Source: Pseudomonas aeruginosa (GTDB taxonomy: Bacteria; Pseudomonadota; Gammaproteobacteria; Pseudomonadales; Pseudomonadaceae). From it: a stretch of 32,000 nucleotides of DNA. The stretch is taken from NCBI RefSeq assembly GCF_001457615.1, contig NZ_LN831024.1:3480001-3512000 (forward strand). The letters are read 5' to 3'. Below the pieces are notes generated by a model that was not told the origin of the DNA, made no database searches, and saw only the letters and a list, made by a program, of their open reading frames with translations. Position numbers and translations under genes: made by a program. Positions 1-30,351 of the stretch are shown here, piece by piece. Numbering within the stretch: position 1 is the first letter of the stretch; each line of letters starts with the position of its first letter.

Positions 1-1272
1 GCCGAAATCGCGACTGCCGAGGCCGACTATCGCACCGTCGGGCAGCTCTGCCGGCGGCTTGCCGGCCTGCAACGCGCCCAGCAGGGTGCCGATGGACAAC
101 CCGCTGTCGGCGAAGCCAGCGCCGCCGGCGACATGCCCGCTACGCAGCGCCCATTGCACCCCGAGGGCGTCGCCGATCTCGCCGGACAGCTCGACGATCG
201 CCGCCTCCACCAGCAGTTGCGCGCGCGGCACGTCGAGCTGGCGGACGATGTCCTCGAGCAGGCCGACATCCTCCGGGTCGGCGAGGATCACCAGGGCATT
301 CAGCGATTCGTCGGCGCGCACCAGCAGGCCGCGCTTGCCGCTTCCCCGGCCATCCTGGCCTCGCTCGCCGTGCAGCGATTCGCCGATCTCCCCGAGGGTG
401 GCGGCAAGGGTCTTGGCGTCGCCATGGCGCAGGCGGATCACCCGGCTGTTCGCCGACCGCGACGAGGGGACGTCGAGCGACTGCGCCAGCCGCAGCAAGC
501 GCGCTCGCGCCTGCGGCGGACCGAGCAGGACCAGGCGGTTGCTGCGGCTGTCGGCAAGGACCTGGACGGTGGCGGCGCTCTTCCCGGCGGCCGGGGTGAC
601 GCTGCGATCGAGCACCTCGGCGATTTCCGCGACCCAGGCATGGCGCATGTCGTAGATGCTGTAGTCATGTTCGCCGGCCCGGTCGAGGCTGCGCACGATC
701 GCCTCGATGCGCTCGATGTTGGCGCGGCGGTCGCTGACGATCAGCGCGTTGGCCGACGGTACGGCGGCCAGATGGCCATGGGCCGGGACCAGCGGCCGGA
801 TCATCGGGATCAGTTCCGCCACCGAGGTCTGCTGCGCCTGGACCACCCGCGTCTCCAGGCTGCCCGGCCCATCGCGGACGGTCTTCTGCGCGGCGTCCTG
901 GCGTGCCTCCATGTTCGGCACGATACGCGCCTGGTCGCCCTGCGGCAGCACCGCGTAGCCGTGGGTGGCGAGCACCGAAAGGAATAGTTGGTAGACCTCC
1001 GCCAGGCTGAGCCGCGCCTGGGATACCACCGTGACCCGCCCCTTCACCCGCGGATCGACGACGAAGGTCTGGCCGCTGATGCTCGATACCTGCTCGATGA
1101 AGTCGCCGATCTCGGCATCCTTCATGTTGATCGTCCACTGCTCTTCCTCTTGCGCGGCGGCAGTCTCGGCAGGTGCCGGATGGACCGGCGGCGCCAGGCC
1201 GAGGACGGCCAGCGACAGGACCAGGAACAGCGGAGACAGGCGCTGGGCGGAACGGGTACTACAACGTGGCAT
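1..1272 (-). CDS. xqhA: Type II secretion secretin (GspD family), N-terminal 424 codons; the gene runs off the left window edge
   Basis: Absent from the ORF track because it has no in-window stop. Manual minus-strand translation from ATG 1272 gives MPRCSTRSAQRLSPLFLVLSLAVLGLAPP..., a signal peptide. I spot-checked nt 1-240 in the same frame and found no stops; it reads ...RAQLLVEAAIVELSGEIGDALGVQWAL...GKPPAELPDGAIVGLGSRDFG, a typical start of a secretin C-domain. No competing ORF is listed in this frame. The start overlaps the upstream GspC-like stop by 14 nt. The symbol is recalled from the P. aeruginosa xphA-xqhA locus. Confidence 0.85.
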   Translation of the reverse strand, partial: MPRCSTRSAQRLSPLFLVLSLAVLGLAPPVHPAPAETAAAQEEEQWTINMKDAEIGDFIEQVSSISGQTFVVDPRVKGRVTVVSQARLSLAEVYQLFLSVLATHGYAVLPQGDQARIVPNMEARQDAAQKTVRDGPGSLETRVVQAQQTSVAELIPMIRPLVPAHGHLAAVPSANALIVSDRRANIERIEAIVRSLDRAGEHDYSIYDMRHAWVAEIAEVLDRSVTPAAGKSAATVQVLADSRSNRLVLLGPPQARARLLRLAQSLDVPSSRSANSRVIRLRHGDAKTLAATLGEIGESLHGERGQDGRGSGKRGLLVRADESLNALVILADPEDVGLLEDIVRQLDVPRAQLLVEAAIVELSGEIGDALGVQWALRSGHVAGGAGFADSGLSIGTLLGALQAGKPPAELPDGAIVGLGSRDFG

Positions 1273-1750
1273 GGGTGGTTTCTGCCCCTTCGGCTTTGGG
1301 GAAATACAGACGTTCTTCATAACCCTGGTCGCGCAGCACCACATGGTCGCGATGAACCGCCAGCAGCACGGTGCCGGGGCGCACTTCGGCGCCCGGCAGG
1401 AAGCGCTGCGAGCGCCCGGCCACCGCGATCAGCGCCGCCGAGCGGTCCTCGCGACGCGCCAGGAAGCAGGCCAGCAGGCGCAATTGCAGACGCTCGCCCG
1501 CCGTCGCGCCGCGCGGCGACGGAGCGCCACCGAACAAGCCGGCTAACGCCGCGCGCGGGGCCGCTGAAGGGTTGGCTGGCGGCGCCGGGGCCGCTGCGGC
1601 GGGCAATTCCGCCAGCTCGCGGCGCAGCGAGCGCGTCTGGCTGGCCAGGCTGGCGCTGAGCAACGCCAGCAGCAGCACGCAAAGCACAGCGGGCGCATGC
1701 CCGGCCAGGCTGCGCAGGGAAACGAAAGACGATGGAAGGTGACGCGACAT
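1259..1750 (-). CDS. xphA: GspC-like type II secretion inner-membrane component
   Basis: The ORF 1259..1816 (-) has alternative ATGs at 1816, 1786 and 1750. I chose 1750 (MSRHLPSSFVSLRSLAGHAPAVLCVLLLALLSASLA) because it gives a short cytoplasmic N-terminus followed by one TM helix, the GspC topology. The C-terminal part (RLQLRLLACF...AALIAVAGRSQRFLPGAEVRPGTVLLAVHRDHVVLRDQGYEERLYF) resembles the GspC HR domain. It sits directly upstream of, and overlaps, a secretin gene. No start has a clear SD, so the start is uncertain. Confidence 0.75.
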   Translation of the reverse strand: MSRHLPSSFVSLRSLAGHAPAVLCVLLLALLSASLASQTRSLRRELAELPAAAAPAPPANPSAAPRAALAGLFGGAPSPRGATAGERLQLRLLACFLARREDRSAALIAVAGRSQRFLPGAEVRPGTVLLAVHRDHVVLRDQGYEERLYFPKAEGAETTHATL

Positions 1751-1927
1751 GCAGCAGGCGGATTCCGGCAAACGGGCGCGCTGCATCGACGCGGCTCGCC
1801 CAGGGGCGGCGAGCATAAGGGATGGGGCTGCGGCCTACGGCCGCGAAAGGGCAAAACTGTTAAGGCTGCCCGCTTTGATCCTTCGTGGCGGGAACTGGCC
1901 CACAAAACGCCAGGCGCGGGAAAGGCC

Positions 1928-2226: not shown

Positions 2227-4509
2227 TCAACGCAGTTGCCACCAGCCCGGCAGCAACCGGCGCACCTTGGCCTGGGCGAAACGGTCGTCGATCAGGTGCA
2301 CCACGCCGCGATCGCTGCGGCTGCGGATCACCCTCCCGGCGGCCTGGACCACCTTCTGCAGTCCCGGATACAGGTAGGTGTAGTCGTAGCCGTCACCGAA
2401 CAGGCGCTGCATGCGCAGGCGGATCTGCTCGTTCACCGGATTCACCTGGGGCAACCCGAGGGTGGCGATGAAGGCGCCGATCAGGCGCTCGCCAGGCAGG
2501 TCGATGCCTTCGCCGAAGGCACCGCCGAGCACGGCGAAGCCGATGCCCTCGCCGCCCGCGACGAAGCGCTCGAGGAAGACCCGGCGCTCCGCCTCGTCCA
2601 TCCGTGGCGTCTGGCTCCAGCATGGCACCCACGGGTATGCCTGGCGGAAGACGTCCAGCGCCTGCTGCAAGTAATCGAAGCTGCTGAAGAAGGCCAGGTA
2701 GTTGCCCGGCCGCTGGCGAAACTGCTCGCCGAGAATCGCTGCGATGGGCGCCAGGGATGCCTGGCGCTGCGCATAGCGCGTGGAAACCCGACGCTGTATG
2801 TGCACCTCCAGTTGCTCGGCGCTGAATGGCGAGTCCACTTCCAGCCAGGGCGTGCCCGCCGGCAGGCCGAGCAGGTCGGCGTAATAGTCGCGCGGCCCGA
2901 GGGTAGCGGAGAACAGCACGGTGGAGCGGCTGGCGGCGAAGCGCTCGGCGAGAAACGCCGCCGGCACCACGTTGCGCAGGCACAGCCGGGCCAGGCTGCG
3001 GCCGTTGCGGCCTGGGCGCTTCTCGATGTCGAACAGCGAATGCTCGCCGAACAGTTCGGCGAGACGGCCGAACTGCAGGATCGCGAAGTAGAACTCCTGC
3101 AACGCCGGCTCCAGCGCCTGCGGTTGCTCGGCGAGCAGGTCGTTGATCGCCGCCACCGCGTTCTGCAAGGCCAGGAGCAGCTTCTGCGGAGGCTCGTCGT
3201 AGGCCTGGTAGTCGTCCGCCTGGGTCTTGGCCAGTTCGTTCCAGGCACGCTGGATGCGCTCCAGCGGTTTCCTCAGGGCCTCCGGGGCGGTTTTGCGCAC
3301 ACCGAGGAAATCGCCCTGGTCGAGTTCGGCGGAATACATCCGCCGGCCGCGCTCCACCAGGTTGTGCGCCTCGTCCACCAGTACCGCCACCCGCCACTGG
3401 TTGACCTGGGCCAGGCCATGGAGCATGGCGCCGAGATCGAAGTAGTAGTTGTAGTCGCCCACCGCCAGGTCGCACCAGCGCGCCAGTTCCTGGCCCAGGT
3501 AGTAGGGACAGACCCGGTGCGCCAGCGCCACCTCGCGCAACCGCGCCTGGTCCAGCCAGCGCGCCTCCACGGCGGCGGCGCGGGCCGCCGGCAGGCGTTC
3601 GTAGAAGCCCTGGGCCAGGGGACAGGACTCGCCGTGGCAGGCCTTGTCCGGGTGCTCGCAGGCCTTGTCCCGCGCCACCAGTTCCAGCACCCGCACCGGC
3701 AGTCCGCCGGTCTCCCCTTCCAGGCTACGCAGGGCATGCAGCGCGAGGGCCCGGCCCGGGGTCTTGGCGGCCAGGAAGAACAGCCGGTCCAGGCGCTGCC
3801 CGGGCATCGCCTTGAGTTGCGGGAACAGCGTGCCGATGGTCTTGCCGATCCCGGTCGGCGCCTGGGCCATCAGGCAACAACCGGCGGAGGCGGCCTTGTA
3901 CACCGCCTCCGCCAGTTGCCGCTGGCCGTGGCGGAATTCGGCGTGGGGAAAGCGTAACGCGGCCAGTTCGCGGTCGCGCCGCTGGCGGTGCGCCAGTTCC
4001 TGCTCGGCCCAGGCGAGAAACGCCTGGCACTGGCTCTCGAAGAACAGCCGCAGCTCGTCGGCCCGCACCCGCTCGACGAAGCGGGTCTCCTTCTGGCTGC
4101 CGACCTCCAGGTAGACCAGCGCCAGTTCGACTTCCTCCAGCTTCCGTTCGGCGCAGAGCAGCCAGCCGTAGACCCTGGCCTGGGCCCAGTGCAGGTGCCG
4201 GTGGTTGGCCGGTTGCAGGGCGAGGTCGCCGCGGTGGGTCTTGATTTCCTCCAGGCAGTTCGCCTGCGGATCGTACCCATCCGCCCGGCCGCGCACCTGC
4301 AAGTGACGGTAGCGTCCGTCCAGCGCCACTTCGCGCTGGTAGTGAGCGGGGCGCCGGGAGGTCACCAGGGTATGTCCGGCGATGCCTTCCAGGGCGCTGG
4401 GCGACGGGGTGAAGCGCAGGTCGAGGTCGCCGCGCTTGGCGCTGAACTCGCAAAGCGCGCGCACCGCCACCTGGTACAGCGCCTCGCCGCCCTGCTCAGT
4501 CATCGACAT
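2227..4509 (-). CDS. Fusion protein: N-terminal PD-(D/E)XK nuclease domain plus an XPD/Rad3/DinG-family Fe-S SF2 DNA helicase
   Basis: 760 aa. The N-terminus has RADGYD...CLEEIKT (D...ExK nuclease motif). It carries Walker A AQAPTGIGKT and a DEAH box VLVDEAHNL. A four-Cys cluster lies between them (ACEHPDKACHGESCPLAQGFY...VCPYY), as in XPD/DinG/FANCJ 4Fe-4S helicases. C-terminal helicase motifs are FGEGIDLPG and QAAGRVIRS. ATG 4509 (or 4503) overlaps the stop of the upstream nuclease gene. Confidence 0.9.
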   Translation of the reverse strand: MSMTEQGGEALYQVAVRALCEFSAKRGDLDLRFTPSPSALEGIAGHTLVTSRRPAHYQREVALDGRYRHLQVRGRADGYDPQANCLEEIKTHRGDLALQPANHRHLHWAQARVYGWLLCAERKLEEVELALVYLEVGSQKETRFVERVRADELRLFFESQCQAFLAWAEQELAHRQRRDRELAALRFPHAEFRHGQRQLAEAVYKAASAGCCLMAQAPTGIGKTIGTLFPQLKAMPGQRLDRLFFLAAKTPGRALALHALRSLEGETGGLPVRVLELVARDKACEHPDKACHGESCPLAQGFYERLPAARAAAVEARWLDQARLREVALAHRVCPYYLGQELARWCDLAVGDYNYYFDLGAMLHGLAQVNQWRVAVLVDEAHNLVERGRRMYSAELDQGDFLGVRKTAPEALRKPLERIQRAWNELAKTQADDYQAYDEPPQKLLLALQNAVAAINDLLAEQPQALEPALQEFYFAILQFGRLAELFGEHSLFDIEKRPGRNGRSLARLCLRNVVPAAFLAERFAASRSTVLFSATLGPRDYYADLLGLPAGTPWLEVDSPFSAEQLEVHIQRRVSTRYAQRQASLAPIAAILGEQFRQRPGNYLAFFSSFDYLQQALDVFRQAYPWVPCWSQTPRMDEAERRVFLERFVAGGEGIGFAVLGGAFGEGIDLPGERLIGAFIATLGLPQVNPVNEQIRLRMQRLFGDGYDYTYLYPGLQKVVQAAGRVIRSRSDRGVVHLIDDRFAQAKVRRLLPGWWQLR

Positions 4510-6175
4510 GCCAGCGCACGTAGCAGACCGCCACCGGCATCTCCCGCTCGCGGCAGAATTGCAGCCAGCGCAACTGGTTGTCCTGCAGGCGGTCGCCCGG
4601 TCCCTTGACCTCGACCATCCGGTAGCGCCGCTGCGCCGGCCAGAACTGGATCAGGTCCGGCAGGCCGGCGCGGTTGCCCGGGATATCCTCCAGCAGGCGT
4701 TCGAACCAGGCGCGCAGGTGGGCCGCCGGCAGGCAATCGAGCGCCTGTTCGAGCAGTTCCTCGCCAAGCAGTTCCCAGTAGACGAAGGGCGACTGCAGGC
4801 CGAACTTGTCGCGGTAGCGACAGCGGATCGCGTCGCGGTAGCTGCCGTCCTCCAGCCGTCCCAGGCAGGCCTCGAACAGGGCGGCGCGGCGCTGGCGGAA
4901 GTCGGCGCTGTGCAGGTCCGCCGGCGCGCTGTGGAAGGGATGGAAGAACGCCCCGGGAATGGCGGCGAAGATCGCCTCCCAGCAGAGCAGCCCGAACAGC
5001 GAATTGATCAGGCCGTTCTCGACGTAGTGCACCGCGCAACCGGGCTCTTCCAGGTGCTCGCGGACCGCCCACTCGACGCTACAGGGTTCGCTCGGGAACG
5101 CCAGGCACAGGTCCAGGCGGTCGATTTCCGGAGCCGCCGCCCGCGCCTGTCGCGGCAGGCCGAGCTTGCCTTGCAGGCGCGGCAGCAATCGGGCCAGGCC
5201 CTGGCGTTCGGCGTCGCTTTCCGGCGCACAGCTGGCCTCCCGCGCCAATGCATGGGCTTCGGCGAAGCGCTCGCCGCGTTCCAGGCTGCGAATCGCCCGC
5301 AGGCGCGCGCCGGGGTGGCTGGATTGGCGATAGAGCCGCTGGGCCAGGTCGAAATCCCGCTGCTTTTCGCAGTGCTGGGCGAACTGGAACAGCAGCTTGA
5401 CCCGCCGCCCTTCCAGCCAGGGATTGGCGTAGGGTTCGCCCGGCAGGCCGGCGAGCAGTTCCTCCAGCGGCTCGCCGAGGTCGAAGCGCTGGCGGCAGTC
5501 GAACAGGTGGAGATAGGCGTCGACGTCGGCGCGCAGGCGAAAGCCGCGGGAGTCGGCGGAAAACTCGACGCTTTCGTAACGATAGATACCCAGGTCGGCA
5601 AGGACGAACTCCGACCAGTCCTGCCACAGGTTGCCGAAATACATCAACCGCAAGCGGTCGCAGAGCGCCATGCAGCGCAACTCGTAGACCGGTTCGGCGA
5701 AGTCGGCCTGCCACTCGGCGAGCCGCCGCGCCTCGGGGAACAACGGCTGGAGCCGTTCCAGCAACGCATCCTTGCGCAGGTTCGCGCGCCCGAGATGGTC
5801 CCTGAACAGCTGCGACAATTCGTCCTTCCTCAGCAAGCCGAACAGTTGCGCCAGTTCCAGGGTCGGCTGCGCGTCCACCCAGCCCAATGCCAACAGCGGT
5901 TGCACGGCGGCGCGCGTGTCGCCGATCTCGGCATAGGCCAGCTTGCCTTCGCGGAACAGCGTGCCCTTGCGCATCACCATGCGCACCAGCAGGGCCTGGC
6001 TGGCCTCGGGCAGCTCGGCGAACGCGGCGATGAAGGCACGTTCCTGATCGTCGAGCAGATCGGCATAGCGTTCGCCGATCCAGGCGAGCACCGCGCGGAA
6101 GTTGTGCAGGTAGTAGAAGGGTTCGGGAAGCGCTGGGGAATTCACGGGAAGCGGAGCCTGGTACTGTTCATGCAT
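4496..6175 (-). CDS. FAN1-like structure-specific nuclease with a C-terminal VRR-NUC domain
   Basis: The track ORF is 574 aa. I prefer ATG 6175 (MHEQYQAPLP..., 559 aa). The C-terminus GLPDLIQFWPAQRRYRMVEVKGPGDRLQDNQLRWLQF contains the PD...E-x-K VRR-NUC catalytic core. The N-terminal and central regions look like SAP/TPR-like helical repeats, as in FAN1. I recall that the P. aeruginosa FAN1 homologue (PaFAN1) has been crystallised with 5' flap DNA. Confidence 0.9.
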   Translation of the reverse strand: MHEQYQAPLPVNSPALPEPFYYLHNFRAVLAWIGERYADLLDDQERAFIAAFAELPEASQALLVRMVMRKGTLFREGKLAYAEIGDTRAAVQPLLALGWVDAQPTLELAQLFGLLRKDELSQLFRDHLGRANLRKDALLERLQPLFPEARRLAEWQADFAEPVYELRCMALCDRLRLMYFGNLWQDWSEFVLADLGIYRYESVEFSADSRGFRLRADVDAYLHLFDCRQRFDLGEPLEELLAGLPGEPYANPWLEGRRVKLLFQFAQHCEKQRDFDLAQRLYRQSSHPGARLRAIRSLERGERFAEAHALAREASCAPESDAERQGLARLLPRLQGKLGLPRQARAAAPEIDRLDLCLAFPSEPCSVEWAVREHLEEPGCAVHYVENGLINSLFGLLCWEAIFAAIPGAFFHPFHSAPADLHSADFRQRRAALFEACLGRLEDGSYRDAIRCRYRDKFGLQSPFVYWELLGEELLEQALDCLPAAHLRAWFERLLEDIPGNRAGLPDLIQFWPAQRRYRMVEVKGPGDRLQDNQLRWLQFCREREMPVAVCYVRWHVDD

Positions 6176-6259
6176 ACAGATACCAGCGCCCCCACGGCTT
6201 GGCAATGCGCATCCGATCAAGCGTCGCCGGCCTGACGACGACTATCCAGGCACAAGGCG

Positions 6260-7022: not shown

Positions 7023-7829
<807 letters not shown>

Positions 7830-22697: not shown

Positions 22698-24986
22698 TCA
22701 GAGGTTCTCGTAGCGGTTCATGTCCAGTGCGCCCGCCTCGACCGGCTCGGTTTCGCGGATGTACGCCTCGAGATCGTGGAAGTAGCTCCAGAACTGCGGA
22801 TTGCTGCGGCGCACGCCCCAGCGTTCGACCACCTTGTCGAAGTCCTCGCCGCTCTTCGCCGCCTCCAGGGCGCCGACGAAGGCCTCGGCATCCGTCGCCG
22901 GCAGATCGAACATGAAGTTCGGGTAGCTGGACAGCACGCCCGGGTAGATCGTCAGGGTGTCCAGGCCCGGCTGGTAGCGCAGCGACTCGCCGAGCATGAA
23001 GGCGACATTGCTGTGCGCGCGGTTGCGCAGCACGGTATAGACCTCGCGCTTGCCGCTGGACGTACGTATCCGCAGCATGGTCGCCTCGGGGAAGCGCTCG
23101 ATGACCTTGAGGCCGGCCGCCGGCCGGCTCACCAGGCGACTGAAGGCCTGCTCGGCGTCCTGCAGTTCGCGGTCGATGCCCGGTCGATAGCAGTTGCCGT
23201 CCAGGCAGCGGTTGATCGGGTCGGGGCGCGCATTGAGGTCGCCGTAGCGACGCAGCAGTTCTTCGGCGAAGGCCTTCTTCGGCTGCTTCTCCGGCAATCC
23301 CAGCGCGCTCGGCGTGTCATCGTCGAAGGCCTGGTAGTCCATCCACATCTTCAGCTTGCCGCTGTTCTGGTACCAGTCGTCGAGCAACGGCTGGCGCGCG
23401 TCGATCGGCATCAAGCGGAGGAAGTTCTGCTCGGCGCCGTTGCGGATCAGGTCGAAGTACAGGCGCGTCTGCGCCTGGTGCGAGACGTTGCCGAAGACAT
23501 CGAAGTTCACCACCAGCCCGTAGTAGGTTCGCTCGAACAGCGGGTAGTCCATCAGCCACAGGGTCTGCGGTACCTCGCCAAGCAGGCCCTTGCGCACCGA
23601 GGCGCTGTCGAACTGGCGGAAGATGCTCAGCAGGGCGTTGTCGTTGCCGTGCCAGATCGTGTTCCAGGTCGGCGGCGGCGCGTCGGCGTAGACGTCCTGG
23701 CGCAGGTCTTCGTACTCGTTGCGCTTGTCCCGGTAGGCGCTCCACAGGCCGAGCAGGTTCTTCAGCTCGTCGATCTGCCCCGGCAAGGCCAGCAGCGGCT
23801 CGCTCTGCGCGCGGAAGTTGGCGTCGGTGACGAACAGGTCCTGCTCGGGGTCCTGGAATACCACCCAGAAGTTGTCGCGGATCACGTCGGTGGCGATCTG
23901 TCCACGGCACACCGGCCCGCGGATGAAGGTACGGGTGAAGTACTCGGCGTTGTCCAGCATGAACTGGTAGCGCGCCCGTGGCGGGATCGCGGCGAAGGTG
24001 ACGAACGGGTTGGCGCGGCTCTGCACGCCGTAGCCGGGAACCTTGTCGGTGTTCCACTGGGTGCCGAAGAACAGCTCCTGGACGCGTTCCAGCTTCTTCG
24101 CCGTCAGCGGATAGGTGATGTGCGTCTTGTGGACGATCACGCCCTGGATCGGCCAGAGGCGGTAATAGAAGCTGTTGCCCGGATCGTCGTTGGGACGCCG
24201 GGTCGGGATCGGGTCGATCGGCTGGCCGCTGGGCGTGCGTGAACGCACCAGCTGGAAGAAGTGGCCGGGCGCGCCCTGCTCCGGGAAATACAGGTGCGCC
24301 AGGAACAGGTGCTCGTAGAGCCAGCGCGAGACCAGGCTCTGCTTGGCCCCAGGCTGGTTGAGGAAACGCTCCCAGCTGGCCACCTGGCGCGCCTCGGCGG
24401 CGGTCGGCCGCAACGGCTGCTGGTCGACCGGGGCGCCCGCGGCCAGCCACTTCTGCAAGGTGGCGTATTCGTCGTCGCTCAGCCCGGCCACCGCGAAAGG
24501 CATGCCGGAACCTGGGTTCTTGCGGATGAACGCATCGATGCTGGCCGGCGTCGGGCACTGGTTGGCGCGGTTGATCGAAATGTCCAGGCCTTCGGGGATC
24601 TTCGCATTCGGCTGCAACGGCTGGCTGTGGCCAAGCTCGAGCATCCGCGCCATCAGTGCGGCCTGGCCGTCCTGCGGTTCGAGCACCGACCAGAAGTCCT
24701 TGCGCCGCCAGGCGTCGGCACCGTGCGCATCGAGGTACAGGCGGGTGGTTTCCTGCGCCTTGGTCCGCGTGCCGTCGTAGACCGGCAGTTGGTTGGCGCC
24801 GCGCTGCGCGCCCTCGGCGCTGCTCAGGTTGAGCTGGCAGGGCGAATCGTAGCAGGCGTGGCAGGCGACGCACTTGGCGGTAAAGATCGGCTGGACGTCA
24901 CGGCTATAGGAAATTTCAGCAGCGGAAACAGACTGGATAAAAGACGACAAAACGAAGGCCAACCCAACCAACGGTCTTGGCAACAT
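22698..24986 (-). CDS. cti: Periplasmic fatty acid cis/trans isomerase (cytochrome c type)
   Basis: 762 aa. It has a signal peptide MLPRPLVGLAFVLSSFIQSVSA/AE and a heme c binding motif CVACH close to the N-terminus (FTAKCVACHACYDSPCQLNL), which is diagnostic of Cti. Confidence 0.95.
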   Translation of the reverse strand: MLPRPLVGLAFVLSSFIQSVSAAEISYSRDVQPIFTAKCVACHACYDSPCQLNLSSAEGAQRGANQLPVYDGTRTKAQETTRLYLDAHGADAWRRKDFWSVLEPQDGQAALMARMLELGHSQPLQPNAKIPEGLDISINRANQCPTPASIDAFIRKNPGSGMPFAVAGLSDDEYATLQKWLAAGAPVDQQPLRPTAAEARQVASWERFLNQPGAKQSLVSRWLYEHLFLAHLYFPEQGAPGHFFQLVRSRTPSGQPIDPIPTRRPNDDPGNSFYYRLWPIQGVIVHKTHITYPLTAKKLERVQELFFGTQWNTDKVPGYGVQSRANPFVTFAAIPPRARYQFMLDNAEYFTRTFIRGPVCRGQIATDVIRDNFWVVFQDPEQDLFVTDANFRAQSEPLLALPGQIDELKNLLGLWSAYRDKRNEYEDLRQDVYADAPPPTWNTIWHGNDNALLSIFRQFDSASVRKGLLGEVPQTLWLMDYPLFERTYYGLVVNFDVFGNVSHQAQTRLYFDLIRNGAEQNFLRLMPIDARQPLLDDWYQNSGKLKMWMDYQAFDDDTPSALGLPEKQPKKAFAEELLRRYGDLNARPDPINRCLDGNCYRPGIDRELQDAEQAFSRLVSRPAAGLKVIERFPEATMLRIRTSSGKREVYTVLRNRAHSNVAFMLGESLRYQPGLDTLTIYPGVLSSYPNFMFDLPATDAEAFVGALEAAKSGEDFDKVVERWGVRRSNPQFWSYFHDLEAYIRETEPVEAGALDMNRYENL

Positions 24987-25347
24987 GAACCACTCCTCAC
25001 TCGGCGACGGGCGATTCTAGCAAACCCGCCTCTCTGCGCCGCACTTTCACAACGACGGGCGAACGCGCCCCGGGCATGAGCCGCCATTTCGCCAGCATTC
25101 CACCGGCTTCGGCCGCCACGTATGCTAGCCGGGCTCCCAGGCCCGCCCTGGCGATCAAGGACGATGACTTCGAGGAAACAGGGATATGTTTCGACTCGCC
25201 GCGCCCCATCCGCGCCGGTTCGCGTGCGCCCCACGTCCCCTCTTCGCCGCTTTCCGCCTGCTGTCGTCAGGCGGCGCTTCCGTTCGCGCCCGGCGCGGCC
25301 TGGTCCATCCTTTCGCCGCCCTGGCGGCCCAACGGAGAACCCGCCCC

Positions 25348-25866
25348 ATGAAACTGCTCGCCGGCAGCTTCGCCGCTCTCTTCCTGAGCCTTTCGGCCCA
25401 GGCGGCGGACTGTACTTTCACCCAGCTGGAAATCGTGCCCCAGTTCGGCTCGCCGAACATGTTTGGCGGCGAGGACGAGCACGTCCGCGTGATGTTCAGC
25501 AACGAGGATCCCAACGACGACAACCCCGATGCCTTTCCCGAACCGCCGGTCTACCTGGCCGACCGCGACAGCGGCAACGATTGCCGCATAGAGGACGGCG
25601 GCATCTGGTCGCGCGGCGGCGTGTTCCTGAGCCAGGACGGTCGGCGCGTGCTGATGCATGAATTCAGCGGCTCCAGCGCCGAGCTGGTGTCCTACGACAG
25701 CGCCACCTGCAAGGTGGTGCACCGCGAGGACATCTCCGGCCAGCGCTGGGCGGTGGACAAGGACGGGCTGCGCCTGGGTCAGAAATGCTCGGGCGAATCC
25801 GTCGACAGCTGCGCGAAGGTCGTGAAGCGTTCGCTCGCGCCGTTCTGCCAGACCGCAAAGAAATGA
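25348..25866 (+). CDS. tsi1: Periplasmic immunity protein to the Tse1 peptidoglycan amidase
   Basis: 172 aa from ATG 25348 (MKLLAGSFAALFLSLSAQA/ADCTF..., Sec signal peptide). The track ORF starts 54 codons earlier at 25186, but that would bury the signal peptide. It lies immediately upstream of tse1. I recognise the sequence as Tsi1 from memory. Confidence 0.9.
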   Translation: MKLLAGSFAALFLSLSAQAADCTFTQLEIVPQFGSPNMFGGEDEHVRVMFSNEDPNDDNPDAFPEPPVYLADRDSGNDCRIEDGGIWSRGGVFLSQDGRRVLMHEFSGSSAELVSYDSATCKVVHREDISGQRWAVDKDGLRLGQKCSGESVDSCAKVVKRSLAPFCQTAKK

Positions 25867-25907
25867 TCCGGGCCGGAGCGCCCCTTATCGACACGCATAG
25901 GTGATAC

Positions 25908-26372
25908 ATGGACAGTCTCGATCAATGCATCGTCAACGCCTGCAAGAACAGCTGGGACAAGAGCTACCTGGCCGGCACCCCGAACAAGGACAACTGTTCC
26001 GGCTTCGTCCAGTCGGTGGCCGCCGAGCTGGGCGTACCGATGCCCCGCGGCAACGCCAACGCCATGGTCGACGGCCTGGAGCAGAGCTGGACCAAGCTCG
26101 CCTCCGGCGCCGAGGCCGCGCAGAAGGCGGCCCAGGGCTTCCTGGTGATCGCCGGCCTGAAGGGCCGCACCTACGGGCACGTCGCGGTGGTCATCAGCGG
26201 TCCGCTGTATCGGCAGAAGTACCCGATGTGCTGGTGCGGCAGCATCGCCGGCGCGGTCGGCCAGAGCCAGGGCCTGAAGTCGGTCGGCCAGGTGTGGAAT
26301 CGCACCGACCGCGACCGCCTCAACTACTACGTCTACTCCCTGGCCAGTTGCAGCCTGCCCAGGGCCAGTTGA
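25908..26372 (+). CDS. tse1: Type VI secretion exported effector 1, an NlpC/P60-CHAP-like peptidoglycan DL-endopeptidase (amidase)
   Basis: 154 aa. My hand count places the catalytic Cys at residue 30 (KDNCSGFV) and His at residue 91 (RTYGHVAVV), matching the published Tse1 catalytic dyad. There is no signal peptide. AGGTGA lies 5 nt upstream of the ATG. Confidence 0.95.
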   Translation: MDSLDQCIVNACKNSWDKSYLAGTPNKDNCSGFVQSVAAELGVPMPRGNANAMVDGLEQSWTKLASGAEAAQKAAQGFLVIAGLKGRTYGHVAVVISGPLYRQKYPMCWCGSIAGAVGQSQGLKSVGQVWNRTDRDRLNYYVYSLASCSLPRAS

Positions 26373-26380
26373 TTCAGGCC

Positions 26381-26413
26381 GTGCTGCGAATGAGCCAGAC
26401 TCATTCGCAGCAC
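26381..26413 (+). terminator. Strong hairpin 9 nt after the tse1 stop (possible terminator or mRNA stabiliser)
   Basis: GTGCTGCGAATGAG-CCAGA-CTCATTCGCAGCAC forms a perfect 14-bp stem. No U-tract follows, so intrinsic termination is uncertain. Confidence 0.5.
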
Positions 26414-26537
26414 GATTCCCCACGAGCATCCCGACTCCACTCGCCCGTCCCTTCGCCGCCTGCCTGCGCACTCCGACCTCCGCATTCCGCCCGTATACTG
26501 CGACAAAACGGCGCCAGGGATTTTTCCGGCCCGCGAA

Positions 26538-26566
26538 TGAACATCCTTCAACTTGAATGAAATTCA
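26538..26566 (+). promoter_or_regulatory. Two tandem TGAA-N5-TTCA motifs (MetR-box consensus) upstream of metH
   Basis: TGAACATCCTTCA (26538-26550) and TGAATGAAATTCA (26554-26566) are separated by 3 nt and lie 81-109 nt upstream of the metH ATG. Enterobacterial MetR, which activates metH, recognises TGAA-N5-TTCA. Confidence 0.5.
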
Positions 26567-26646
26567 TGGTCCGACCACCCCCGGCCGGAAAGCCCCTGCC
26601 TTTGTTATGCTTTTCACCTTTCCGCCCACTGACGCCAGGTCCATCC

Positions 26647-30351
<3,705 letters not shown>

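What the first reader, a model, noticed from the sequence alone, without database searches (positions are those of the whole stretch)
25155..26413. Orphan type VI effector/immunity pair (Tsi1 then Tse1) wedged between housekeeping genes, with a GGA-motif-rich leader
A periplasmic immunity protein (Sec signal peptide, 172 aa) is followed 41 nt later by a 154-aa signal-less NlpC/P60-type amidase with Cys30 and His91. This is the Tse1/Tsi1 toxin-immunity pair of the H1-T6SS. The sequence shows no vgrG, hcp, PAAR or other T6SS structural gene anywhere in the window; the pair sits between cti and metH. The immunity gene comes first, which would ensure immunity is made before toxin. The leader carries clustered A(N)GGA motifs: AAGGA 25157, GAGGA 25172, AGGGA 25180, and ACGGAG across the tsi1 SD at 25332. 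This fits RsmA/CsrA-type translational repression, consistent with the known Gac/Rsm control of H1-T6SS substrates. A perfect 14-bp hairpin (26381-26413) closes the unit. The pair is already described, but it is the clearest interbacterial weapon module in this window.
Basis: partly seen in the sequence, partly recalled or inferred. Interest (0 to 1): 0.75.

Follow-up and report, generated by a model that had tools for sequence, protein, structure and literature searches.

The report
Known Tsi1–Tse1 toxin-immunity gene pair
This is the well-studied Pseudomonas aeruginosa gene pair for the cell-wall-cutting toxin Tse1 and its antidote Tsi1, so the finding is correct but ordinary.

Summary
tse1 (25908-26372) is 100% identical to crystallised P. 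aeruginosa Tse1. tsi1 (25348-25866) is 171/172 identical to crystallised Tsi1. They correspond to PA1844 and PA1845.

cti and metH flank the pair, and no T6SS structural gene was found in the window. This fits published work showing that Tse1 is Hcp1 cargo.

Related Pseudomonas species have metH and cti directly adjacent. The pair, its leader and its 3' hairpin are therefore a ~1.5-kb insertion. Immunity-first order holds in 19 of 27 related loci.

"GGA-rich leader" fails as a raw count: 4 GGA against about 5 expected. The stricter RsmA core CANGGA is enriched in four orthologous leaders, with 7 found against 0.94 expected. Published RIP-seq, ChIPPAR-seq and proteomics already tie this transcript and Tse1 protein to RsmA/RsmF. 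The exact binding sites and the transcription start remain unmapped.

The hairpin is real: 15 bp, conserved in five loci, with compensatory changes. It has no U-tract, so it is not a canonical terminator.

Verdict: already known, low interest.

The parts
25021..26542 (+). Approximate extent of the inserted cassette (leader, tsi1, tse1, hairpin and trailing spacer) relative to species with an empty metH|cti site
   Evidence: P. citronellolis, M. resinovorans and a P. sihuiensis-type contig have metH and cti 152-175 bp apart. The shared flanks are GATTCTAG on the cti side and CAAC(A/T)TGAA...TTCATG on the metH side. No terminal repeats were found.
25095..25200 (+). Conserved block of the leader. 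It holds a weak sigma-70-like candidate (TTCCAC 25098-25103, 17-nt spacer, TATGCT 25121-25126; inferred only) and the GGA cluster.
   Evidence: 98% identical to P. paraeruginosa (2 differences in 106 nt). Neighbouring 25021-25094 is 79.7% identical, and third-codon positions of the flanking genes are about 92-94% identical. The promoter scan found nothing, and the transcription start is not known.
25155..25164 (+). TCAAGGACGA, a full match to the RsmA/RsmE optimum (A/U)CANGGANG(U/A). It is candidate Rsm site 1.
   Evidence: the pattern occurs 3 times in the window against 1.96 expected, so alone it is not significant. A similar ..GGCG..CA(A/G)GGACG element occurs in the P. mangrovi, M. otitidis and zfem005 leaders.
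25175..25193 (+). Small hairpin GAAACA/UGUUUC that presents GGGAUA (the AGGGA motif, CAGGGA at 25179-25184) in its loop. It is candidate Rsm site 2. GAGGA at 25172-25176 abuts it.
   Evidence: This is the only one of the four GGA predicted to be unpaired, with P(unpaired) 0.58-0.98 for this sequence depending on the stretch folded. In the P. paraeruginosa leader the same motif scores only 0.04.
25334..25337 (+). tsi1 Shine-Dalgarno GGAG, 10 nt before the ATG
   Evidence: Read from the sequence. The preceding AC is TT in P. paraeruginosa, so the A(N)GGA form is not conserved.
25348..25866 (+). tsi1 (PA1845), the periplasmic immunity protein, 172 aa. The signal peptide is about 25348-25404.
   Evidence: 171/172 identical to PDB 3vpj_E. 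Pfam Tsi1 PF21565, E = 1e-79.
25899..25912 (+). tse1 ribosome-binding region: AGGTGA (25899-25904), plus CATGGA (25907-12) overlapping the start codon
   Evidence: Read from the sequence. CANGGA match. A published thermodynamic model lists PA14_40660 (tse1) as a predicted RsmA target with repression.
25908..26372 (+). tse1 (PA1844), a peptidoglycan amidase effector of 154 aa with catalytic Cys30 and His91
   Evidence: 100% identical to PDB 4eob_A and others. C30 and H91 are invariant in 17 homologues. The CHAP and NlpC/P60 Pfam hits fall just below their cut-offs.
26380..26414 (+). Perfect 15-bp hairpin with a 5-nt loop, 8 nt after the tse1 stop codon and with no U-tract
   Evidence: It is conserved after tse1 in 5 Pseudomonas-lineage loci, and 3 pairs show compensatory changes.

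Best explanation
The locus is the tsi1-tse1 operon of Pseudomonas aeruginosa (PA1845-PA1844).

What the proteins do (published work on the identical proteins): Tse1 is a small papain-like amidase with a Cys30/His91 dyad. It is loaded into Hcp1 rings and fired by the H1-T6SS into neighbouring Gram-negative cells, where it cuts peptidoglycan peptide cross-links. Tsi1 is exported to the producer's periplasm by its Sec signal peptide. There it binds and blocks Tse1 arriving from sister cells.

Why it sits alone: Tse1 travels as Hcp1 cargo, so it needs no adjacent vgrG or PAAR gene.

How it got here (shown here): the pair lies on a ~1.5-kb cassette inserted into the ancestral divergent metH|cti intergenic region. 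The cassette consists of its own leader, tsi1, a 41-nt spacer, tse1 and a 3' hairpin.

How it is controlled (inferred, consistent with published omics): both genes are co-transcribed from a promoter in the conserved block around 25095-25135. RsmA and RsmF bind CANGGA-type sites in the leader (25155-25193) and possibly at the tse1 start (CAUGGA). This keeps Tse1 production off until GacS/GacA-induced RsmY/Z titrate the Rsm proteins.

The 3' hairpin (inferred): it most likely marks or stabilises the 3' end of the transcript.
For: - Identity: Tse1 is 100% and Tsi1 99.4% identical to solved structures. Pfam Tsi1 E = 1e-79. C30 and H91 are invariant.
- Hcp1 cargo and PA1844/PA14_40660 naming: PMC12133291 and PMC8262886.
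- No T6SS genes in the window.
- Insertion: empty metH|cti sites in three species. The same slot is occupied in P. paraeruginosa, M. otitidis and Pseudomonas sp. zfem005.
- Operon order: a Tsi1 homologue lies directly upstream on the same strand in 19 of 27 loci.
- Rsm, from supplements of PMC11882435: PA14_40650 is enriched in RsmA (L2FC 2.9, padj 6e-4) and RsmF (4.1, padj 2e-7) pulldowns. PA1844 and PA1845 are listed as ChIPPAR-seq hits. Tse1 protein has L2FC -6.2 in WT versus delta-rsmAF only.
- Rsm, from sequence: CANGGA occurs 7 times in four orthologous leaders against 0.94 expected, reached by 0 of 2000 shuffles. The block 25095-25200 is 98% conserved.
- Hairpin: z = -6.3, with covariation in 3 pairs.
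Against: - The transcription start is unknown. If it lies downstream of 25184, the GGA cluster is not in the mRNA.
- Raw GGA count is below the window average, and CANGGA is not enriched window-wide.
- The cluster lies 150-190 nt from the tsi1 SD, which from my own knowledge is far for direct occlusion by a bridging RsmA dimer.
- Three of the four GGA are predicted to be paired, and the leader fold is no better than shuffles.
- The published model predicts tse1, not tsi1, as the RsmA target.
- Two of the four leaders in the CANGGA test (M. otitidis, zfem005) are related to each other, so they are not independent.
- Equating PA14_40650 with tsi1 rests on locus-tag adjacency.
- The hairpin lacks a U-tract.
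Confidence: 0.85

Rival explanations
1. The upstream GGA cluster is not an Rsm site. It is chance sequence, or part of the promoter or untranscribed DNA. On this view Rsm control of Tse1 is indirect (for example through AmrZ or other regulators), or acts only at the tsi1 and tse1 ribosome-binding sites.
For: - GGA count is below the window mean, and triplets of GGA are common.
- The full consensus WCANGGANGW occurs 3 times against 1.96 expected.
- The leader fold is not special.
- The cluster lies 150-190 nt from the SD.
- The published model flags tse1 rather than tsi1.
- The review PMC12133291 notes an indirect route through AmrZ.
Against: - CANGGA recurs in four otherwise diverged leaders, 7 against 0.94 expected.
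- The block holding the cluster is more conserved than third-codon positions of the flanking genes.
- The tsi1 transcript co-purifies with RsmA and RsmF.
Confidence: 0.3
2. Tsi1 is made as a longer 226-aa protein from the in-frame ATG at 25186. That ATG has GAGGA 9 nt upstream as a good Shine-Dalgarno, so the 'GGA cluster' would simply be that ribosome-binding site.
For: The ORF 25186-25866 is open and in frame. GAGGA (25172-25176) is well spaced from ATG 25186.
Against: - P. paraeruginosa has a 1-nt deletion at 25251 that shifts this ORF out of frame with tsi1.
- GC3 is 0.70-0.79 in all three frames here, against 0.84-0.93 in real genes of the window.
- The crystallised and Pfam-matched protein begins at the 172-aa form.
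- The extension would bury the signal peptide.
Confidence: 0.03
3. The 3' hairpin is not an RNA element of the operon. It would instead be a REP-like or recombination-related DNA palindrome marking the cassette edge.
For: It has no U-tract in any of the five loci. It lies near the right side of the inserted segment and travels with tse1 into a different left-hand context in P. mangrovi.
Against: There is no second copy in the window and no matching element at the left edge. Compensatory changes keep the pairing, which fits either reading. It starts 8 nt after the stop codon, as transcript-end hairpins usually do.
Confidence: 0.12

Closest known systems
Tse1-Tsi1 (PA1844-PA1845; tse1 = PA14_40660) of the P. 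aeruginosa H1-T6SS
   Same: Protein sequences are identical or nearly so (154/154 and 171/172). Gene order, the 41-nt spacer and the cti/metH neighbours all match. This is that locus.
   Different: Nothing of substance. One conservative residue differs in Tsi1 (V for I near the C-terminus) relative to the crystallised PAO1 protein.
Tae1/Tai1 family cassettes in other proteobacteria
   Same: The Cys/His amidase is preceded by a Tsi1-family immunity gene on the same strand in 19 of 27 loci. They are small two-gene units, and no T6SS genes lay within 8 kb in the three loci where neighbours were inspected.
   Different: The neighbours differ. In one metagenomic contig the pair sits between atpD and atpC. 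The Pseudomonas-lineage leader motifs and 3' hairpin are not seen in the distant loci.
RsmA-repressed leaders of the H1-T6SS genes tssA1 and fha1
   Same: The transcript co-purifies with RsmA/RsmF. CANGGA motifs are present, one of them in a predicted hairpin loop. The protein is de-repressed when the Rsm proteins are removed.
   Different: For tssA1, binding at the 5' UTR hairpins is described (CLIP-seq preprint). Here the sites are unmapped, the candidate cluster is far from the SD, and de-repression in PA103 needed loss of both RsmA and RsmF.

Membership tests
Tse1 / Tae1 amidase effector | Sequence identity to the founding, structurally solved protein | tested here: met
   154/154 identical to 4eob_A, E = 6e-104
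Tse1 / Tae1 amidase effector | Catalytic Cys30-His91 dyad conserved | tested here: met
   C30 and H91 are invariant in a 17-sequence alignment. C30A is the inactive mutant used in PMC8262886.
Tse1 / Tae1 amidase effector | Recognised by NlpC/P60 or CHAP profile models | tested here: inconclusive
   CHAP scores 23.5 bits against a cut-off of 26. NLPC_P60 scores 19.8 against 23. No NCBIfam model matches. The fold is nonetheless known from the identical crystal structures.
Tse1 / Tae1 amidase effector | Adjacent cognate immunity gene | tested here: met
   tsi1 lies 41 nt upstream on the same strand
Tse1 / Tae1 amidase effector | Hcp1/H1-T6SS-dependent export and peptidoglycan amidase activity | not testable with these tools
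   Published for the identical protein (PMC8262886, PMC12133291)
Tsi1 immunity protein (PF21565) | Profile match over the full domain | tested here: met
   E = 1.1e-79, profile positions 1-146 of 146. 171/172 identical to 3vpj_E.
Tsi1 immunity protein (PF21565) | N-terminal Sec signal peptide for periplasmic location | tested here: met
   MKLLAGSFAALFLSLSAQA|AD, read from the sequence. Crystallised constructs start at residues 20-23. No signal-peptide predictor was available.
RsmA/CsrA-repressed leader | GGA motifs more frequent than chance | tested here: not met
   4 in 361 nt against a window mean of 5.1. Across four leaders, 16 against 12.3 expected, p = 0.13.
RsmA/CsrA-repressed leader | Extended core CANGGA present and enriched | tested here: met
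   2 in this leader (25156, 25179). 7 in four orthologous leaders against 0.94 expected, reached by 0 of 2000 shuffles, with 1 on the antisense strand. Two of the leaders are related to each other.
RsmA/CsrA-repressed leader | GGA presented in hairpin loops, one overlapping the SD | tested here: inconclusive
   Only GGA 25182 is predicted to be in a loop, and the SD GGA is predicted to be paired. The SD motif is not distinguishable from an ordinary SD and changes to TTGGAG in P. paraeruginosa.
RsmA/CsrA-repressed leader | Physical association with RsmA and Rsm-dependent protein level | not testable with these tools
   Published omics: RIP-seq, the ChIPPAR-seq listing and proteomics in supplements of PMC11882435. 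I found no site-level mapping.
Intrinsic (Rho-independent) terminator | GC-rich stem-loop | tested here: met
   15-bp perfect stem, dG about -29 kcal/mol, z = -6.3
Intrinsic (Rho-independent) terminator | U-tract directly after the stem | tested here: not met
   The stem is followed by AUUCCCCACGAG. The scan does not call it, and no U-tract occurs in any of the 5 orthologous hairpins.

The most novel reading that the evidence does not exclude
The tsi1-tse1 unit may be a self-contained portable cassette that carries its own Rsm-responsive leader and a conserved U-tract-less 3' hairpin wherever it lands. Examples are the metH|cti intergenic region in the P. aeruginosa lineage and atpD|atpC in one metagenomic contig.

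Within the cassette, RsmA/RsmF may gate the toxin separately from the immunity protein, through the CAUGGA that overlaps the tse1 start codon. Immunity would then stay on while toxin synthesis is tied to T6SS activation.
Probability: 0.25. Interest if true: 0.35.

Novelty: already known. Interest (0 to 1): 0.12.

Why it matters
It matters little. The pair, its structures, its Hcp1-dependent delivery and its Gac/Rsm dependence are all published.

This check adds three modest points:
- It gives a cleaner definition of the unit, as a 1.5-kb insertion into an ancestral metH|cti site with a conserved 3' hairpin.
- It corrects the 'GGA-rich' claim.
- It names specific candidate Rsm sites (25155-25193 and 25907-25912) that could be tested, should anyone want to know whether toxin and immunity are regulated separately.

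Tried and rejected
- **Extended 226-aa Tsi1 from ATG 25186.** Rejected: the ORF is frameshifted in P. paraeruginosa and shows no coding GC3 signal.
- **Known RNA family in the leader or spacer.** Rfam gave no hit at gathering score anywhere in the window.
- **Stable overall leader structure.** z = +0.31.
- **Sigma-70 promoter by consensus scan.** None found. The TTCCAC-17-TATGCT candidate is my own weak reading.
- **Terminal repeats or a target duplication flanking the insertion.** Only short chance-level matches were found. The best local alignment of the two ends was matched or beaten by 18 of 300 shuffles.
- **'Long' 201-216-aa Tse1 variants in the protein database.** I considered these as a real C-terminal polymorphism. 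The DNA of two of them shows a run of purine-to-pyrimidine changes, or a deletion, exactly in the 5' arm of the hairpin. I judge them probably to be assembly errors.
- **Direct reading of Hood 2010, Gebhardt 2020 and Allsopp 2017.** These papers are not held. The CLIP-seq preprint has no held supplements.
- **NCBIfam.** No model matches either protein.

Full report
**Observation**

- An ORF at 25348-25866 encodes 172 aa beginning MKLLAGSFAALFLSLSAQA|ADC.
- A 41-nt spacer follows.
- An ORF at 25908-26372 encodes 154 aa with no hydrophobic N-terminus.
- The GGA motifs are at 25159, 25174, 25182 and 25334.
- The inverted repeat is a perfect 15-bp stem with a 5-nt loop at 26380-26414, one pair longer than stated. 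Its dG is about -29 kcal/mol and its z-score against shuffles is -6.3.

**Identity**

The 154-aa protein is identical over all 154 residues to several PDB entries named Tse1, such as 4eob, 4fgd and 3vpi (E about 1e-103). The 172-aa protein is identical at 171 of 172 residues to the Tse1-specific immunity protein 3vpj_E. It matches Pfam Tsi1 (PF21565) end to end with E = 1e-79.

The CHAP and NlpC/P60 Pfam models hit Tse1 just under their cut-offs, and no NCBIfam model hits either protein. Cys30 and His91 are invariant in an alignment of 17 homologues down to 52% identity.

The literature gives the locus tags PA1844 (tse1, PA14_40660) and PA1845 (tsi1), and lists Tse1 as an Hcp1-delivered H1-T6SS effector (PMC10281587, PMC12133291, PMC8262886). 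The organism is therefore P. aeruginosa and the locus is a textbook one.

**Surroundings**

Pfam scans of about 33 ORFs covering the window found the following near the pair: nfuA (NifU/Fe-S domains), cti at 22698-24986 on the minus strand, metH (conserved start 26647, end 30351) and a YggL gene. Further away lie transporters, regulators, a cytochrome oxidase subunit, a FAN1-like nuclease with a DinG-like helicase, and a type II secretion protein C-like ORF. No Hcp, VgrG, PAAR or other T6SS structural domain appeared.

This 'orphan' state is expected. Tse1 rides inside Hcp1 rings and needs no dedicated spike gene (PMC8262886).

**Origin of the arrangement**

A scan of one genome per species found 27 loci encoding Tse1 relatives.
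- In 19 of them a Tsi1 homologue lies directly upstream on the same strand. These span gamma-, beta- and alphaproteobacteria. Immunity-first is therefore a family trait, not a local curiosity.
- The order nfuA-cti-tsi1-tse1-metH recurs in P. paraeruginosa and Metapseudomonas otitidis. In Pseudomonas sp. zfem005 it recurs with one extra gene between cti and tsi1.
- In P. mangrovi the pair lies just upstream of metH but without cti.
- In P. citronellolis, M. resinovorans and a P. sihuiensis-type contig, metH and cti are directly adjacent and divergent, 152-175 bp apart, with no pair.

Comparing the empty and filled sites places the insertion between a conserved GATTCTAG next to cti (25013-25020) and a conserved CAAC(A/T)TGAA...TTCATG box before metH (from 26549). 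The insertion is therefore about 1.5 kb, from roughly 25021 to 26542. The whole tsi1 leader and the 3' hairpin belong to the inserted DNA.

I found no terminal repeats or target duplication. Base composition does not differ from the neighbours.

In one metagenomic contig the pair sits between atpD and atpC of the ATP synthase operon. In the three loci whose neighbours I inspected, no T6SS gene lay within 8 kb.

**The RsmA claim: sequence evidence**

As worded, 'GGA-rich' does not survive.
- The 361-nt leader has 4 GGA, while the window averages 5.1 per 361 nt. Three GGA within 26 nt occurs 27 times on this strand of the window.
- The leader folds no better than shuffles.
- Three of the four GGA are predicted to be paired. 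Only AGGGA at 25180 sits in a predicted loop, that of a small hairpin at 25175-25193.
- The 'ACGGAG' at the SD reads TTGGAG in P. paraeruginosa.

Three observations still favour an Rsm-type leader.
- The site at 25155-25164 (TCAAGGACGA) fits the full RsmA/RsmE optimum. On its own this is not significant, with 3 in the window against 1.96 expected.
- The block 25095-25200, which holds the cluster, is 98% identical to P. paraeruginosa. The adjacent 74 nt are 79.7% identical, and third-codon positions of cti, tsi1 and metH are about 92-94% identical.
- The longer core CANGGA occurs 7 times in the 260-nt tsi1 leaders of P. aeruginosa, M. otitidis, zfem005 and P. mangrovi. The expectation is 0.94, none of 2000 dinucleotide shuffles reach 7, and the antisense strand has 1. 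These leaders otherwise barely align. Two of them are related to each other, so the true number of independent observations is nearer three. CANGGA is not enriched over the window as a whole.

A further CATGGA overlaps the tse1 start codon (25907-25912).

**The RsmA claim: published data**

Supplementary tables of PMC11882435 record four relevant results.
- PA14_40650, which I take to be tsi1 from its tag next to PA14_40660, is enriched in RsmA (L2FC 2.93, padj 6e-4) and RsmF (L2FC 4.11, padj 1.7e-7) co-purifications.
- PA1844 and PA1845 are listed among the ChIPPAR-seq hits of Gebhardt et al. 2020, and PA1844 among the rsmA-mutant microarray genes of Brencic and Lory 2009.
- The paper's thermodynamic model lists PA14_40660 (tse1) as a predicted RsmA target with repression. 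tsi1 is not in the part of that list I read.
- Tse1 protein is unchanged in single rsmA or rsmF mutants of PA103 but has L2FC -6.2 (padj 7.5e-4) for wild type against the double mutant.

The link between this operon and the Rsm proteins is thus already in the literature at the omics level. The exact sites and the transcription start are what remain unmapped. I could not read the original Gebhardt, Hood or Allsopp papers.

**The hairpin**

A strong stem-loop follows the tse1 stop codon by 8-11 nt in all five Pseudomonas-lineage loci. The inner stem is homologous (GCGAAUGAG/CUCAUUCGC against GUGGAUGA/UCAUCCAC), and three pairs keep pairing through changes on both sides. None of the five has a U-tract, and the terminator scan does not call it.

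It is a conserved part of the cassette. I infer that it is a 3'-end or stability element rather than a canonical intrinsic terminator.

**Alternatives considered**

The in-frame ATG at 25186, with GAGGA well placed as an SD, would give a 226-aa Tsi1. It is rejected on three grounds. A 1-nt deletion frameshifts it in P. paraeruginosa. All three frames show non-coding GC3 of 0.70-0.79, against 0.84-0.93 in real genes. The extension would also bury the signal peptide.

Database 'Tse1' proteins of 201-216 aa read through the stop codon. The DNA of two of them shows clustered purine-to-pyrimidine changes, or a deletion, confined to the 5' arm of the hairpin. I judge this to look like assembly error at a strong palindrome.

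**Verdict**

- The immunity-first order and the orphan position are real, and both are typical of the family.
- The Rsm idea is reasonable and already supported by published omics, though not by raw GGA richness.
- The hairpin is real but is not a textbook terminator.

Novelty: already known. Interest is low.

Noticed in passing
window 26554-26566 (within 26549-26568): The palindrome TGAATGAAATTCA (form TGAA-N5-TTCA) lies about 80 nt before the metH start. It is conserved upstream of metH in all seven Pseudomonas-lineage species compared, including those without the tsi1-tse1 insertion. From my own knowledge it resembles a MetR operator.
   Followed up: partly
L030 7441-8468 (JGI metagenome 3300081632, 473-kb contig): A tsi1-tse1 homologue pair sits inside an ATP synthase operon, between atpD and atpC. 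The tsi1 stop and tse1 start overlap (ATGA). None of the other 34 loci held shows this context.
   Followed up: partly
window 26350-26414; proteins P0001, P0002, P0005, P0009, P0013, P0015; loci L028, L029: Many database 'Tse1' entries are 201-216 aa because they read through the stop codon. In the DNA of two of them the changes are clustered purine-to-pyrimidine substitutions, or a deletion, confined to the 5' arm of the hairpin. These are probably assembly errors at a strong palindrome rather than real variants.
   Followed up: partly
window 25021-25094: The 74 nt at the left edge of the inserted segment are only 79.7% identical to P. paraeruginosa. This is well below third-codon-position identity in the flanking genes (about 92-94%), and it lies next to a 98%-conserved block.
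   Followed up: no
L002 5350-5375 and L032 about 7295-7320: P. mangrovi and Pseudomonas sp. zfem005 share an identical 24-nt stretch (GCTGCAGACGTGAACGCCGTCATC) upstream of their tsi1 leaders, and M. otitidis has a related sequence. It may be a promoter or regulator site. P. aeruginosa lacks it.
   Followed up: no
window 1259-1816 (-): An ORF with a Type II secretion system protein C domain (PF11356, E = 4e-12) lies away from any visible T2SS cluster in the window.
   Followed up: no
window 2227-6220 (-): Adjacent genes encode a FAN1-like nuclease (FAN1_HTH, SAP and VRR-NUC domains) and a DinG/Rad3-type helicase (DEAD_2, Helicase_C_2).
   Followed up: no
window 26557-26646: The mechanical metH ORF starts at 26557. 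Alignment with four other species supports the ATG at 26647 (ATGTCCAGC...) as the real start.
   Followed up: yes
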